A stretch of 62,186 bases of DNA, filler included, from Sluysia triapertura (lineage: Eukaryota): assembly GCA_046118255.1 (NCBI GenBank). It is 4 parts of 4 records of this genome, joined end to end, with 100 filler letters (N's around TTAATTAATTAA, not from the genome) between each part and the next. Parts side by side here need not be neighbours in the genome. Positions count along the whole stretch, not along the records: positions 1 to 14,640 come from JBJNIA010252747.1; 3 more parts are not named here. One strand, written 5' to 3'. Of the stretch, positions 5,831 to 14,486 are shown piece after piece. A program made the translations under genes and the position numbers. The notes beneath the pieces are model-generated. The model was not told the DNA's origin. It saw nothing but the letters and a program-made list of their open reading frames with translations, and ran no database searches. The stretch's first letter is position 1, and the number at the start of each line of letters is the position of its first letter.

Positions 5831-5899
5831 ACCTAGAGGTATTTTAAGAAATCCTAGTCTTCCGTGTATTACTATATTTTCTAATTTGCTTAATACATC

Positions 5900-7997
5900 C
5901 ATTTCACATCTAAGACTGTCAACTGACATCTTCTCGTTGATGTTTTATTATTTCTTTTGGATCTTCTAGCTTTCCCGAGATTGACATTATTTGTATAAAA
6001 TTTACATTTCCTTGCTCATCGATATTTGTTAATCTGGACATACAATCGGCACCGTTCTTCATTGACCCTGTTTGTATATTATTTGTAGATCAAATTCTGC
6101 AGTTTTGTAAACCATCTATTTAATCTACTTACTTCATCTCTGTGATTTATAGGTATGTTAATGGTTTATGATCCGTATACAGTAATATTTTCTGTCCTAG
6201 TAAATAGTGTCTGAATAGTTTACACGCATATACAATTGCTAAACATTCCTTTTCTATTGTAGAATAATTTAATTCAGCTTTATTTAATCTTCTACTTGCA
6301 TAAGCTATAACACCTTCTAGGTTTTCTTTATTTCTCTGTCCCAGAATTGCTCCTATTGCAAAGTTGCTAGCATCTGTTGTTAGTATAAATGGTTTGCTCA
6401 TATCTGGGAACATTAGTATTGGGACATTTGTTAATCATTTCTTTAATTCAATAAACGCTTTTGTTTGTTCTTTCGTCCACTTGAATATTGTGTTCTTTTA
6501 TATGAGCATTCTTAATGGTCTAGCTATTTTCGCAAAATCTTTTACGAATCTTTCTTTACATTATCTGGTGGTGGAAATTTCACAACTTTTTCTATATTTT
6601 TTGGATTTGGTTTTATACCTTTATGTGAAACTATGTGTCTCAAAAATTCAACTTGTTCTTCTGACCATACACATTTAGTCGGTTTAATTTTTAATCTTGA
6701 GTGTGTTATCTATATCTACACCACATGAGTATCAAAATCTTTTGAAAATACCATAAATGTAAACCATAACATTCTTACAACCGGGAAACACGAAATTCAT
6801 ACATTTTTGGAATGTCATCCGAATGGCATCTTTTCACATTCATATAGTTCGTCTCCACATGAGAATACTGTTTTATGTTTATCTTTTTCAGCTATTTCTA
6901 CTTGCCAATAACCACTTTACAAATCTAATGTAGTAAAGTATTTAGCGTTGCCTAATTTATCTAACATTTCATCAATTCTTGGTAGTGGGAATACATCCTT
7001 TCTCGTTATTTTATTTAATTCTCTAAAGTCAATACAAAATCTCATAGTTCCATCTTTTTTCTTGGTCTGATAACTCCAGCCTTTTTCATAATATCTATTT
7101 GGTCTTTCATTTCTTGTTGCTTACATAATGGAATTCTGTATGGTTTCTTTCTAATTACTTTATCTTCTATTAACGGAATTTCATGTTTTATTATAACGGA
7201 ATCTCCGATATCATATTTATTTCTTGCAATTGCCCATGGATATCTATGGATAACTTTATATAATGTTTCTTTTTGTTGTTTAGTTAAATTCTTATTCTTT
7301 ATTTGTATTTCTTCGTAATCTTCTTCATCTTCAATATTTTTTGGTAGTTTTATGTTCTTATTTCTTGGTTTATCATCTGATACCATTTTTATTTGTGTTT
7401 TTAATTTATAATTAACTATTTCTCCTAGTTTTGTACCTGTGTATAACCATTTATTTTCATCAGTATAATTTATTATTCTTATTGGTATATTCCCGTCGTT
7501 AATTCTACATATTGAATCAGCAATACCTATGTTTAATTTCTCTTGATTATTTTTTGAAGCTATAAACATTATTGGACCATTTCTTAAACTATTTGTTCTT
7601 CTTAAACTATACATTCTGTCATTTCTAATATAACATCATCGTCATCCATTGGTCTTTCCGTATACGTATCCATTAATCTTGCTTTACTGAAGTCTGATGA
7701 AACTCCTTTTAATTGTGATAGTACATTCATTACTCTACGTTTTATTTCCATTTTGTTCTGGCCAATTTCGCATAATATCTTTAGCACTCCTAAAATTTCA
7801 ATTTCATCTCCAGTTACTCCTGTTAAATATGAATGTTGTTTAGCTAAATTGTTTAATTTTTTAGTAGTTAATAATGATTCGCTTATTAATGAGGCAACTG
7901 CTCCTGTATCAACTAATGCAGATAACATTCTATAATTAACTCTCATATCTATCATGGGTCTTCTTGCACTGTTATAGTTATTATTAGCGCATATCAT
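5900..7997 (-). pseudogene. pol: Gypsy pol (aspartic protease, RT, RNase H), frameshifted and partly deleted
   Basis: [60 protein letters not shown] (7060-6815); FILTTDAS, YASRRL, NYSTIEKECLAIV, TDHKPL, ADCMSR. The YxDD region is degraded. Confidence 0.95.
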
Positions 7998-8109
7998 GTA
8001 AACTAGATTTCTTGGAGGTGGTTGATATAAACTTTGTTTTTCTTCGTTGACTGGTTCGATATCTATTGTCTGTAATGCGATTTCCTCAGTTTTTTTTCTC
8101 TTTCTTTAA

Positions 8110-9889
8110 AGCGTTTAATTGAGCATGAGCGTGATGATGTAACATAAACTTAGCAACCGATTATTAACTTCCATGTAAAACCTGATATTCTGTATATACC
8201 TACAACTAAAATATTTCAGAGATTATAAAAGCAATAACTTTAATTATTACATATATACCTATTAAAACAGAAAAAGCTCGACATATAACTAAGAAGTTTG
8301 CCCAAATTTGTTTTAAAGTGTTTTGTGCTGCTTTCCTAATAGTAATTCAAAGTTTATTTTACCATCTTTTTCAACTCTTGATTTATCAACTATATCAGTA
8401 AGTACTTTAGATCTTTTAATAGGAAATAGTATCTCATGCCAAGCCTCTTGATTATCTTCATTTGAATAGATTCCAGATCTTGGAATGTTCTTTGTAGCTG
8501 AGAATTTTAATTTTGTTTTTAATTCTGTTAAACCTATAATTTCCAAAGATTGTCATCAATTTTATATTCTGGAGCCATTACATTAGAGCAGTGTAGAGTT
8601 TTTGGTTTAAGTTTATTAGTTGGCATAATAATTCTAGTGACTGGTTCTAAATAAGTATTTTGATTTTTGTAGATTACTAGTAATTCATTAGTACATTCGC
8701 TCTCTTGTCTTATTTGTACTTCTACCTTTCAACATTTATATGTATATGAAACTTCACCCATTAGCCTACCAAATACTCCTTCTTCTAATGGAAGTAATGG
8801 TGCTACTAAGTCTGGGTTGGTTATTGCTACTGCTAGTTTAGTACTTAATATTTCCTTGTTTAATTGGAAATCTCTAGCTATCATAGCTTGATAAACTTTT
8901 TCTAGTGACATAAGTCCTAAATGATAATAAAAATCGATTTTATTATTAAAATATATTTAATTGTAAATTATTTGTATCTATTCCTTTTTTGGCTTGTAGT
9001 ATTGTCTTTTCTGATAAATATATTCCTTGATAGTTTGTTTCTGTGATTTCTTGTCCGCATCTAATTACTAGTTTCTTTGATACAAATATTAATTCATCTT
9101 CTTTATTCACCATTAAAATTGTTGGAGTTTCGATTTCATGAAGTCTTCCTTTCACTTATATCTAAATTATCCTTATAAATTTGTTTTTTATTTATTTCTT
9201 CTGCAGCTAATTCACCCTCATTTTGATACATAAATCCTGAGATTAGATTAAACTTAATTTATTTTAGGAATATTAGTGGACATTGGAAATTTTCCAATTC
9301 ATATATAGTATAGATTCTCCAGTATCACAACTTGTTTGATCACTTCTACAAAATGGTCTAGACATCATAGTACCTTTTTCTAAATTAAAACTTTCGTTAA
9401 AAGATTTTAGACTTACTACATACGTTTCTTGAGCTAATACATTGTGATAAATCTTCCTTTCGTATTTTATTGATCATCTTTCACAAGTACCATCAATTAA
9501 TACATTACCAGTTATCTAATATTGTAAATTATTTTTTCATTATTTTTAATTCTTAATTTACCTCCTTTATTTAAACTCCTCCTTTATTTATATATCAAGT
9601 TTCAAATGCATCTCGACAATTGTTTGGTGATATTTTAAAAGGTTTTAATATATTCGACATATCAATAATTGACAAGTGACTGTGGTGTTGTAACCAAATT
9701 TCCTACTTGGTAAACATTTAATACTTTCATATCTTTTATTTTGACTCTATTTGGTCTTGATTGAGGACAATCTTCAGTGTCCAATAAAGAAAACTTTCTT
9801 CCGATTTGAGGTTGGTTACAATCAAAAGCTTTTATAGCATTTGTTTTAAGAATTCCAAATAATGCCAATAAAACAATTATAAATAACAT
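8110..9889 (-). pseudogene. Env-like glycoprotein resembling chuvirus (Jingchuvirales) G
   Basis: Signal peptide MLFIIVLLALFGILKTNA then IKAFDC...FSLLDTEDC; LAVAITNPDL...GEVSYTYKC..VEVQIRQESECTNEL...YLEPVTRII...CSNVMAPEY; C-terminal TM SVLIGIYVIIKVIAFII...GIYRISGFTWKL. These match the recalled chuvirus-G motif pattern; many frameshifts. Confidence 0.75.
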
Positions 9890-13041: not shown

Positions 13042-13371
13042 TATTGGAATGAAAAAATATTCTCTGGCATTTCTCTGGCTAAATGTACCATATATTCCTT
13101 AAATTCATTAGGTAAAACCCTATAATTCCTTAATTTTGATCTGTAATCTTCAAAAAGTACAATTTTCTTATCTATTACTTACTTAATCTATTAATAATCT
13201 TATTCTTAACGAAATCTTGATACGATTATTCTAAAAATTCTTAAATCTTAATATTAATTCTCAAATTCTTCTTTAATTAATCTTTAAATTCTTCTTAAAT
13301 ACTTAATTCTTATGTCAATACTCCTCCAAAATCTTCTTAATTACTTAATCTTTATATTTATTTCAATACTG

Positions 13372-13390
13372 CTCCTCATTCTGGGCACCA
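13372..13390 (-). promoter_or_regulatory. Primer-binding site, elongator tRNA-Met-like
   Basis: TGGTGCCCAGAATGAGGAG resembles the reverse complement of the animal tRNA-Met(e) 3' end (TGGTGCCCCGTGTGAGG); ~350 nt upstream of gag and 10 nt after a candidate LTR end ...TTCCACA (13401). Confidence 0.6.
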
Positions 13391-14486
13391 GATTATTCTA
13401 TGTGGAAAATTTACTTAGAATAAAAGGAAGTACTTATTGTGAATTCACCAAGGTACTAGACCAGCAGTTGGATTTTGGTAAATTAAAAGAAAGTCTCAAA
13501 AACCTTTAGCTATCTGTAGACAAATGAAATTTATTTACAAGAATTAATACTAATAATCGAATTTATAAAAAGATTTTTCGTTGATTCCTCTGTATGGAAT
13601 TTTTAAAAGTTATTTTGCGTACCTAGAGGTAAATTCTAGCAGTTGAAGCATAAAGGACGACGGATTTTATGGTTGAAGCTATAATATAATTTATTCTTGA
13701 AAATTTTGTATAGCAATACAATAATAATATAAATGTCTAATTTATGTAAATTAACTGTATAAGTTAATTTCCCATTAAGAAATTTTAAAAATAATATTTT
13801 GCGTATAGATCTTTGAAAATATCCAACAGTTAAATAAAAGAATTTAAGTAAGATTTTTCGTATGATACTATATTTACCTTAAAAATAATTAAACTAACGT
13901 GGTTTAGAATAAGTTTTTAATCGTCTAATAATCTTCAAGTCGTATCGATCTGCCAAAATCTACTAAATTCGAGATTGCGTCTCTGAAAGAGTTGTAATTG
14001 AAAAATTATATTTTTAAAAAGTGTGACCGAATTGAAACAAAATTTTATAAACAACGTTAATTAGCTATAAAGTGTGGAGGGCGACACCAATCTGTACTTT
14101 TTAATTTTACGTGGCTTTACTTTAGTTGAACGAAACTTAATTAAAACCAAATTTTTTTTATCTATTTTGTTAATATTTACGAAAATGAGCTTAAGGCTCA
14201 GATTTATTAGAAATAAACAAATAATTAGAGTATATAACAACATAACAAGATCAAACAACTTGATGTTATTTACAAAAAAATATATTAAAAATAATTCATT
14301 TAAATATAAAATAAACAATGAACGAATAGAATTATCAACATTTAACATATCATGTATACCTTGGATAACATAGTCTATGAGTTCTTCTTTTTCTCCTTTA
14401 TCTCCATCGTTCAGACTTCCATCGAAAGAATCATCAGCCATGGTTAAAACGACGTCGTAAAATACCCATTTTAAAATTCTCATAAA

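What the first reader, a model, noticed from the sequence alone, without database searches (positions are those of the whole stretch)
5850..13400. Gypsy retroelement with an apparent single polyprotein Gag-linker-Bcl2-like-viral glycoprotein-Pro-RT-RH
Seen: no intergenic gap between gag and pol. The Bcl-2-like ORF (10255-10019) is in frame with the glycoprotein ORF (from 9952) across one TGA. The glycoprotein TM and tail run through a T-run frameshift (~8100) into ..PPPRNLVYMICANN..ALVDTGA. Established: env-bearing Metaviridae normally place env as a separate ORF 3' of pol; giant single-polyprotein Gypsy elements with extra domains (Burro) are described in the planarian Schmidtea. Inference: the ancestral element made one polyprotein threaded through the ER (cytosolic Gag/Bcl-2, luminal G, cytosolic Pol), cut by signal peptidase and its own protease, much like a flavivirus polyprotein. 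That would be a potentially infectious retroelement carrying its own apoptosis inhibitor.
Basis: partly seen in the sequence, partly recalled or inferred. Interest (0 to 1): 0.9.

Follow-up and report, generated by a model that had tools for sequence, protein, structure and literature searches.

The report
Decayed Burro-like flatworm retroelement
This is a broken copy of a flatworm retrotransposon whose capsid, Bcl-2-like, viral-envelope and enzyme parts lie in one continuous reading unit, an odd design that is real but was already described in 2019 for the planarian Burro elements.

Summary
On the minus strand (13041-5928) lie Gag, a zinc knuckle, a linker, a Bcl-2-like domain, a signal sequence, a chuvirus/mononegavirus-type fusion glycoprotein, protease, RT and RNase H, with no non-coding gap. 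The copy is dead: at least 39 reading breaks, no readable YxDD, no integrase, no LTR pair found. Relatives from public assemblies show each junction inside one open frame: Bcl-2-like to G in 6, G to protease in 8, Gag or knuckle to G in 4, of 20 examined. No single relative shows the whole chain. A relative's domain folds as Bcl-2 (pLDDT 82, Z 14.6), and the window ORF is the best match to that family's profile. A neighbouring host gene groups with flatworms. This Gag-BCL2-Env-PR-RT order in one ORF is published for Burro (PMC6431247), and GAG-ENV-POL elements for three phyla (PMC13524379). So this is a compact new member of a known kind. What I did not find in print: enzymes always lie outside paired hydrophobic segments, relatives carry extra FN3-like membrane modules, and G's signal sequence could double as the Bcl-2 tail anchor. 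Infectivity and apoptosis inhibition are untested.

The parts
13379..13390 (-). Primer-binding-site-like 12-mer, about 350 nt before gag
   Evidence: Sequence. Its first 8 bases pair with tRNA 3' ends listed in PMC13524379 supplement (Met-CAU, Phe/His and 'others' all fit), so the tRNA type is not fixed. The 8-mer occurs once on each strand of the window.
12400..13041 (-). Gag capsid region (open frame 13098-12226)
   Evidence: Retrotrans_gag E 1.3e-6, Ty3_capsid E 0.002; 31% to P0014 Gag, E 1.6e-17
11768..12337 (-). Nucleocapsid region with one degenerate CCHC knuckle at 12175-12134, in another frame than Gag in this copy
   Evidence: weak match to the P0015 knuckle region, E 0.009
10300..11767 (-). 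Acidic, low-complexity linker with a short AT-hook-like basic motif; coding-like but not alignable to relatives
   Evidence: 5.0-7.5 breaks per kb; motif seen, and upstream of G in 6 of 13 relatives; ubiquitin-like profile does not match
10010..10291 (-). Bcl-2-like domain (BH1 and BH2 regions), broken by a stop inside BH2 and at its N-terminal end
   Evidence: Best hit of a profile built from 7 relatives without the window: positions 10-107 of 107; best of 453 frames, E 0.0015; 0 of 2000 shuffles reach it; family fold is Bcl-2
9833..9889 (-). Internal signal-sequence-like hydrophobic segment just before the glycoprotein start
   Evidence: Hydropathy 2.31; BH2 to G start is 66 aa here and 48-81 aa in 7 relatives
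8305..9835 (-). Class III (chuvirus/mononegavirus, HSV gB-type) fusion glycoprotein ectodomain, many breaks
   Evidence: PF24664 pieces in order, E down to 1.5e-23; 60% to P0002 over the best piece; collinear with the relatives
8221..8277 (-). Glycoprotein transmembrane anchor
   Evidence: Hydropathy 2.67; aligns with the TM region of relatives
7971..8220 (-). Cytoplasmic tail running into the protease, several frame changes
   Evidence: TM start to DTG is about 131 aa here and 147-390 aa without a stop in 8 of 8 relatives that have both
7670..7970 (-). Aspartic protease (single copy, DTG at about 7910)
   Evidence: RVP E 9.1e-7
7384..7587 (-). Protease-RT spacer domain shared with relatives (dUTPase-like only by analogy with Burro)
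   Evidence: Profile from 4 relatives, E 1.2e-12; no Pfam dUTPase hit
6551..7063 (-). Reverse transcriptase; YxDD not readable in any frame
   Evidence: 45-52% to 4 relatives
5928..6551 (-). Connection and RNase H; homology ends at 5928, about 55 residues before the relatives' integrase zinc finger
   Evidence: RT_RNaseH E 3.5e-35; P0018 alignment ends at residue 2902, its Integrase_H2C2 starts at 2957; integrase profile finds nothing in the window
1059..5925 (-). Packed, intronless same-strand ORFs 3' of RNase H, probably the element's tail and accessory genes: S/T-rich 5843-5532, TM-ended 5385-5059 and 4694-4449, FN3-like lead 4567-3995, RING 3310-3059, Pro-rich 2411-1698
   Evidence: 2.1-9.1 breaks per kb; zf-RING_2 E 1.3e-6; ORF 4567-3998 is the best of 453 frames for a profile of the relatives' FN3-like modules, E 0.005, 1 of 2000 shuffles. 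Membership in the element is inferred, not shown.

Best explanation
A decayed, integrase-less copy of a compact Burro-type Ty3/gypsy (Metaviridae) element in a flatworm genome. Its functional forebear most likely encoded one long polyprotein. Shown: the domain order, the lack of a non-coding gap, and each junction in one frame in relatives. Inferred mechanism: Gag, linker and Bcl-2-like domain are made in the cytosol. An internal signal sequence sends the class III glycoprotein into the ER lumen, and its TM anchor returns the chain to the cytosol for protease, RT, RNase H and integrase. Signal peptidase cuts at the G start and the element's protease frees the cytosolic parts. The signal sequence then stays on the upstream fragment and can serve as the C-terminal membrane anchor of the Bcl-2-like domain (and of uncut Gag), as with anchored flavivirus capsid and tail-anchored cellular Bcl-2 proteins (established knowledge, recalled). 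The most likely job of the Bcl-2-like domain is to keep the producing cell alive (about 55%).
For: One-frame junctions among 20 relatives (P0002-P0019, L001, L002): Bcl-2-like to G in 6 (P0002, P0003, P0006, P0012, P0014, L001); G to protease in 8 (P0002, P0005, P0007, P0013, P0015, P0017, P0018, L001); G to RT and integrase in 4 (P0005, P0017, P0018, L001); Gag or knuckle to G in 4 (P0005, P0007, P0014, P0015). P0014 is Gag-CCHC-ubiquitin-like-Bcl2-G in one 1130-aa ORF and aligns to window 10255-9686 in a single frame across the stop. L001 has a 3426-aa open frame from Bcl-2-like to integrase. The L001 domain model (pLDDT 82.5) matches Hydra Bcl-2-4 at Z 14.6, rmsd 2.7, 132 aligned; the top 35 rows are all cellular or viral Bcl-2-fold proteins and the next has Z 5.3. 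All 54 PDB sequence hits of the family profile are Bcl-2 family, best E 0.006. In L001 all proteases, RT and integrase lie outside hydrophobic pairs that bracket G and the FN3-like modules; P0005, P0017 and P0018 fit, with some segments missed by the strict scan. The host EHD gene groups with trematodes (SH-aLRT 96), on its own branch. The same order is published for Burro.
Against: This copy has at least 39 breaks in 7114 nt, so its own continuity cannot be read directly. The linker 11770-10300 aligns to no relative. No single relative shows Gag, Bcl-2-like, G and RT in one frame: L001 is cut at its 5' contig end and P0014 ends inside G. P0013, P0017 and P0018 start 150-210 residues before G without Gag, and their DNA context could not be seen. 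L002 has an in-frame TGA between the Bcl-2-like domain and the signal sequence, though not at the window's position. The window's own model is poor (pLDDT 44; Foldseek best Bcl-xL, E 0.62). The alignment used for the good model included the window piece. A 1:1:1 Gag:Env:Pol output is unusual for retroelements (recalled). The host tree is a quick single-gene tree with no triclad row.
Confidence: 0.85

Rival explanations
1. The parts were separate ORFs or joined by programmed recoding (readthrough between Bcl-2-like and G, a frameshift before the protease), as in most env-bearing gypsy elements.
For: In-frame TGA between Bcl-2-like and G in both the window and L002; frame change at an A/T run near 8095; three long relatives begin near G without Gag.
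Against: The two stops are about 20 codons apart and the window's lies inside BH2. Six relatives have no stop there, and 8 of 8 have none between TM and protease. Break density at these junctions equals that inside RT and G.
Confidence: 0.08
2. 8100-11900 is an independent insertion (a chuvirus-like endogenous viral element plus a captured host Bcl-2 gene) nested in an ordinary gag-pol element.
For: The glycoprotein family is that of mononegaviruses/chuviruses; the linker has no homolog among relatives.
Against: The same block sits at the same place in relatives' open frames. No terminal repeat brackets it. Its closest matches are retroelement polyproteins.
Confidence: 0.03
3. The architecture is as described, but the Bcl-2-fold domain does not block apoptosis by binding BH3 helices. 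It damps innate signalling or autophagy, like poxvirus A46, A52 and B14 (functions recalled), or is only a membrane adaptor.
For: BH1 NWGR is absent in all 8 aligned members; only the BH2 GG is invariant. Relatives such as P0005, P0007, P0015 and P0017 have G and protease without a recognisable Bcl-2-like domain, so it is dispensable.
Against: The fold is closer to cellular and anti-apoptotic viral Bcl-2 proteins (Z 12-14.6) than to A52, A46 and B14 (Z 6.0-7.4). Burro also carries BIR domains.
Confidence: 0.4
4. The glycoprotein is kept for cell-to-cell spread within one animal (for example into stem or germ cells), not for transmission between animals.
For: PMC13524379 reports host-congruent trees and long vertical descent for these elements.
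Against: No direct data either way. Full-length G with signal and TM is kept at 524-544 residues in 9 relatives, which shows selection for some fusion role but not which.
Confidence: 0.5

Closest known systems
Burro / GYPSM1 giant gypsy elements of dugesiid planarians (PMC6431247, section read in full; Grohme 2018 not held)
   Same: One ORF in the order Gag, CCHC, BCL2-like, in-frame env with hits to mononegavirus fusion proteins, PR, spacer domain, RT, RH; accessory ORFs; flatworm host; decayed copies already noted in Dugesia japonica.
   Different: Much more compact: about 2370 codons from Gag to RNase H, against 4873-5140 aa for the whole Burro ORF. One knuckle instead of two or three. No MATH, BIR, ankyrin or ubiquitin-like domain detected. 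Integrase and LTRs are missing here. No direct sequence comparison with Burro was possible.
GAG-ENV-POL errantiviruses with HSV gB-type env in Platyhelminthes, Nematoda and Bryozoa (PMC13524379; passages, sections 5 part 1 and 14, supplement searches; Sacco 2022 known only as cited there)
   Same: Env between gag and pol; gB/chuvirus-type glycoprotein. By eye only, the six Schmidtea env rows in supplement file 3 share the Cys-TGES, TP and CG-TNY motifs with the window and with P0004.
   Different: That paper's main text has no occurrence of 'Bcl', 'Burro' or 'polyprotein'; it does not treat the Bcl-2 domain or membrane threading.
Anakin BEL/Pao elements with chuvirus glycoprotein (PMC7642597, search listing only, and as cited in PMC13524379)
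   Same: LTR element with the same glycoprotein class.
   Different: Bel/Pao, in mosquitoes; here the order is PR-RT-RH of gypsy type with a Ty3-like capsid, and a Bcl-2-like domain is present.
Flavivirus and alphavirus structural polyproteins (recalled)
   Same: Working analogy only: internal signal sequences and TM anchors thread one chain across the ER; host and viral proteases cut it.
   Different: Unrelated RNA viruses with class II fusogens; no homology claimed.

Membership tests
Ty3/gypsy (Metaviridae) | Gag with Ty3/retrotransposon capsid | tested here: met
   PF03732 E 1.3e-6, PF19259 E 0.002
Ty3/gypsy (Metaviridae) | Pol order PR-RT-RH-IN | tested here: inconclusive
   PR-RT-RH met in the window; integrase absent from this copy; full order met in 4 relatives whose RT is 45-52% identical
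Ty3/gypsy (Metaviridae) | Paired LTRs, PBS, target-site duplication | tested here: inconclusive
   PBS-like site at 13390-13379; no LTR pair within the window; the 3' end may lie beyond base 1 or be lost
Burro | BCL2-like domain directly before env | tested here: met
Burro | Env in frame between gag and pol in one ORF | tested here: inconclusive
   Not readable in this broken copy; no non-coding gap; each junction met in relatives
Burro | Env related to mononegavirus fusion glycoproteins | tested here: met
   PF24664, E 1.5e-23
Burro | Giant size (ORF about 4900-5100 aa, over 30 kb) with MATH, BIR, ankyrin and ubiquitin-like domains | tested here: not met
   About 2370 codons Gag to RH; none of these domains found in the ORFs scanned; decay could hide short ones. 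Hence filed as Burro-like, not as Burro.
Burro | dUTPase-like domain between PR and RT | tested here: inconclusive
   A conserved spacer domain is there but has no Pfam dUTPase hit
Burro | RT clade shared with Burro-1 to -4 | not testable with these tools
   No Burro sequence was returned by any tool
Burro | Dugesiid planarian host | tested here: inconclusive
   Host EHD groups with flatworms outside the five trematode rows; genome about 25% GC; no named triclad row was available
GAG-ENV-POL gB-type errantiviruses | gag-env-pol order with gB/chuvirus-type env bounded by signal sequence and TM | tested here: met
Pro-survival Bcl-2 proteins | Bcl-2 helical fold | tested here: met
   Met for relative L001 (Z 14.6); linked to the window by profile; the window's own model is too poor
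Pro-survival Bcl-2 proteins | BH1 NWGR motif | tested here: not met
   Absent in 8 of 8 aligned members
Pro-survival Bcl-2 proteins | BH3 binding and death suppression | not testable with these tools
   Needs bench assays

The most novel reading that the evidence does not exclude
Burro is only the giant end of a broad family of flatworm retroviruses that build a multi-pass polyprotein like a flavivirus. Up to three signal/anchor pairs place a class III fusogen and FN3-like surface proteins in the lumen while proteases, RT and integrase stay cytosolic. The fusogen's signal sequence is reused as the tail anchor of a true Bcl-2-fold protein, which tethers Gag to the membrane that carries Env and keeps the producing stem cell alive.
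Probability: 0.35. Interest if true: 0.65.

Novelty: new member of a known kind. Interest (0 to 1): 0.35.

Why it matters
The headline architecture is not new, so this copy by itself adds little: a compact, dead Burro-like element. The value lies in what the relatives add to a thinly studied system (four papers held at least 4 of 5 Burro-related terms). They give structural support that the domain has the Bcl-2 fold with a non-canonical BH1. They show the family is modular: Bcl-2-like present or absent, one to seven protease domains, extra FN3-like membrane modules. And they give a concrete, testable topology in which one hydrophobic segment serves both Env import and Bcl-2/Gag anchoring. If shown, that would be a new way for a retroelement to couple assembly, envelope and cell-death control in animals that depend on adult stem cells.

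Tried and rejected
No genome is held for this window, so other copies in the same genome could not be compared. The first word-index protein search with the Bcl-2-like plus signal region found nothing (0 of 2333 candidates); the full HMMER scan found 16. Glycoprotein patterns found no relatives in viral contigs (0 of 600 candidates) or prokaryote genomes (0 of 313), and 2 of 244 in metagenome contigs. Sequencing runs: one holder with share 0.21, no RNA holder listed; no reads were laid, so expression and copy variation remain open. The window's own Bcl-2-like model was too poor to use. A ubiquitin-like domain in the window linker was considered and rejected (1460 of 2000 shuffles score as high). 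That same small profile hit an unrelated stretch at +22853 with 0 of 2000 shuffles, which shows that small profiles can give such hits; the FN3-like call for ORF 4567-3998 is therefore only a lead. ORF 4959-4720 looked FN3-like by eye but failed (661 of 2000). Atlas: ORF 4567-3998 gave only unnamed clusters at 0.86-0.87; the L001 module gave FN3 clusters at 0.90 with recognition 1790, weak by the tool's own scale; phmmer of another L001 module against the PDB gave 0 hits. No LTR pair, and no repeat bracketing 8100-11900. No tRNA gene in the window to test the PBS. The L001 accessory ORFs (exonuclease-like, coiled coil) have no match in the window. Earlier findings of this scan: none returned. 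Grohme 2018 and Sacco 2022 are not held, and the figure supplements of PMC13524379 could not be seen; they may already mention FN3 modules or topology. P0005 is filed under a Flavobacteriaceae MAG; I take that as animal DNA binned with a bacterium, not as a bacterial element (inference).

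
Full report
Observation. The element lies on the minus strand of a roughly 25% GC animal contig. Pfam finds, in order, a retrotransposon Gag (E 1.3e-6), pieces of a Monjiviricetes fusion glycoprotein (best E 1.5e-23), a retroviral protease (E 9e-7) and RNase H (E 3.5e-35). RT aligns at 45-52% to four relatives. The stop lies inside the BH2-like motif. The TM-to-protease stretch changes frame more than once. 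All 11 segments from Gag to RNase H, the linker included, need only 0-8.0 reading breaks per kb, against 10-17 in five control stretches, so there is no intergenic gap. The copy is dead: at least 39 breaks in 7114 nt, no readable YxDD, no integrase anywhere in the window, and no LTR pair. A PBS-like site lies at 13390-13379.

Relatives. A glycoprotein piece found P0002 (60% identity). A full HMMER scan with the Bcl-2-like plus signal region found 16 proteins. Cluster look-up added P0018 and P0019, and a metagenome scan gave L001 and L002. That makes 20 relatives. The Bcl-2-like domain and G share one frame in 6, G and protease in 8, G with RT and integrase in 4, and Gag or a knuckle with G in 4. 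P0014 reads Gag-CCHC-ubiquitin-like-Bcl-2-like-signal-G without a stop and aligns to window 10255-9686 in one frame. L001 has a 3426-residue open frame from before the Bcl-2-like domain to beyond integrase. Spacing agrees: BH2 to G start is 66 residues in the window and 48-81 in 7 relatives; TM to protease is about 131 against 147-390 in 8. Against this: no single relative shows the whole chain; three long ones start near G without Gag and their context could not be read; L002 has one in-frame stop after the Bcl-2-like domain, about 20 codons from where the window's lies; and the window's linker aligns to nothing.

The Bcl-2-like domain. The window ORF has no Pfam hit and its own model is poor. 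A profile from 7 relatives, built without the window, picks 10288-10010 as its best hit over nearly its whole length. It is the best of 453 frames, and 0 of 2000 shuffles reach its score. Six of 8 members of the focused alignment match Pfam Bcl-2 weakly (E up to 0.5, best 7.7e-5), and all 54 PDB sequence hits are Bcl-2 family. The L001 domain folds with pLDDT 82.5 and matches Hydra Bcl-2-4 at Z 14.6, rmsd 2.7 over 132 residues; the top 35 rows are Bcl-2-fold proteins, and all Foldseek rows shown are too, at E 0.004-0.014. The fold is thus established for the family. The BH1 NWGR motif is absent in all 8, so BH3 binding is not a given.

Host. The neighbouring EHD gene (16272-31799, + strand) scores best against trematode proteins and one unnamed protein among single-domain hits. 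In a quick tree of 47 rows it groups with five trematodes at SH-aLRT 96, on its own branch with that unnamed row (46 of the 120 listed EHD proteins were used). With the low GC this fits a planarian, but no named triclad was in the tree.

Mechanism. Shown: domain order, a hydrophobic segment before G and a TM after it, and one-frame junctions in relatives. In L001 the order is signal-G-TM, two proteases, hydrophobic-FN3-like-hydrophobic, protease-RT-RH-integrase, hydrophobic-two FN3-like-hydrophobic. P0005, P0017 and P0018 fit the same pattern, though the strict scan missed some segments, including the L001 G signal. Every enzyme therefore lies after an even number of hydrophobic segments, as threading through the ER requires. 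The FN3 label is a lead. Inferred: signal peptidase cuts at the G start, the element's protease frees the cytosolic parts, and the leftover signal sequence anchors the Bcl-2-like domain and uncut Gag in the membrane. The comparison with tail-anchored Bcl-2 proteins and anchored flavivirus capsid is recalled knowledge. Apoptosis inhibition (about 55%) and spread between animals are untested.

3' region. Homology stops at 5928, just before integrase. From 5925 to 1059 lie packed same-strand ORFs with low break density, including a RING finger, TM-ended ORFs and a weak match to the relatives' FN3-like modules. The simplest reading is an internal deletion of integrase with the element's tail and accessory genes left behind. 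This is inferred.

What is known. PMC6431247 (passages and the whole Burro section) describes Burro ORF1 as Gag, CCHC knuckles, MATH, ubiquitin-like, BCL2-like, env with hits to mononegavirus fusion proteins, PR, dUTPase-like, RT, RH and IN. [quoted passage not shown] PMC13524379 (passages, section 5 part 1, section 14, supplement searches) reports GAG-ENV-POL elements with gB-type env in Nematoda, Bryozoa and Platyhelminthes, with up to 215 copies in Schmidtea; by eye their env rows share motifs with the window. PMC11410931 (passages) only mentions Burro. Searches and the sections read gave no account of signal-anchor reuse, threading or FN3 modules. Grohme 2018 and Sacco 2022 were not held and the figure supplements could not be seen, so this absence is provisional.

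Verdict. The feature is real and the single-polyprotein reading is probably right (0.85), but the design is published. The element fails Burro's size and extra-domain criteria, so it is a compact Burro-like GAG-ENV-POL gypsy element: a new member of a known kind, interest 0.35. The threading and anchor model for the family is the part worth following (probability 0.35, interest 0.65 if true).

Noticed in passing
L001 4750-5330 and 9050-10050; C-terminal parts of P0005, P0017, P0018: Signal-FN3-like-stalk-TM modules embedded in the polyprotein, once between proteases and once after integrase in L001. The FN3 label is weak (atlas 0.90).
   Followed up: partly
P0018, P0015, P0017, P0002, L001: Repeated aspartic protease domains in one ORF: 7 Pfam stretches in the 4844-aa P0018, which also has ankyrin repeats and C2H2 fingers; 4 in P0015; 3 in P0017 and L001.
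   Followed up: no
L001 10617-12107: Accessory ORF with an RNase T/DEDD exonuclease domain (E 1.4e-5) 3' of the polyprotein.
   Followed up: no
P0005 (HBK71150.1): A knuckle-to-integrase polyprotein of this family is annotated in NCBI as a Flavobacteriaceae MAG protein; probably animal DNA binned with a bacterium.
   Followed up: no
window 55118-55241 (+): Second, more decayed gag fragment, 76% identical in DNA to 12830-12954.
   Followed up: partly
window 1059-2411 (-): Three ORFs in one frame separated by two stops, starting with a Pro/Thr-rich part that holds a PPxY motif; no Pfam hit.
   Followed up: partly
window 396-687: Three tandem copies of a 98-99 nt unit, overlapping a 147-codon plus-strand frame; could be part of an element end.
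   Followed up: no
window 43132-46451: Nested long inverted repeats (72-159 nt arms, 83-90%), like a foldback or MITE-type DNA element.
   Followed up: no
window 16272-31799 (+), 37760-38164 (-), 14061-14639 (-): Host genes: EHD in six coding blocks, a CCDC81 exon, and a sugar-transporter-like fragment next to an assembly gap.
   Followed up: partly
window 34446-34566 and 36272-36373: Two tRNA-like repeats (86-87% alike) that ARAGORN does not call; possibly tRNA-derived SINEs.
   Followed up: no
window 22853-23032 (+): Frame inside an EHD intron that scores on the small ubiquitin-like profile (0 of 2000 shuffles); unexplained, may be chance.
   Followed up: partly
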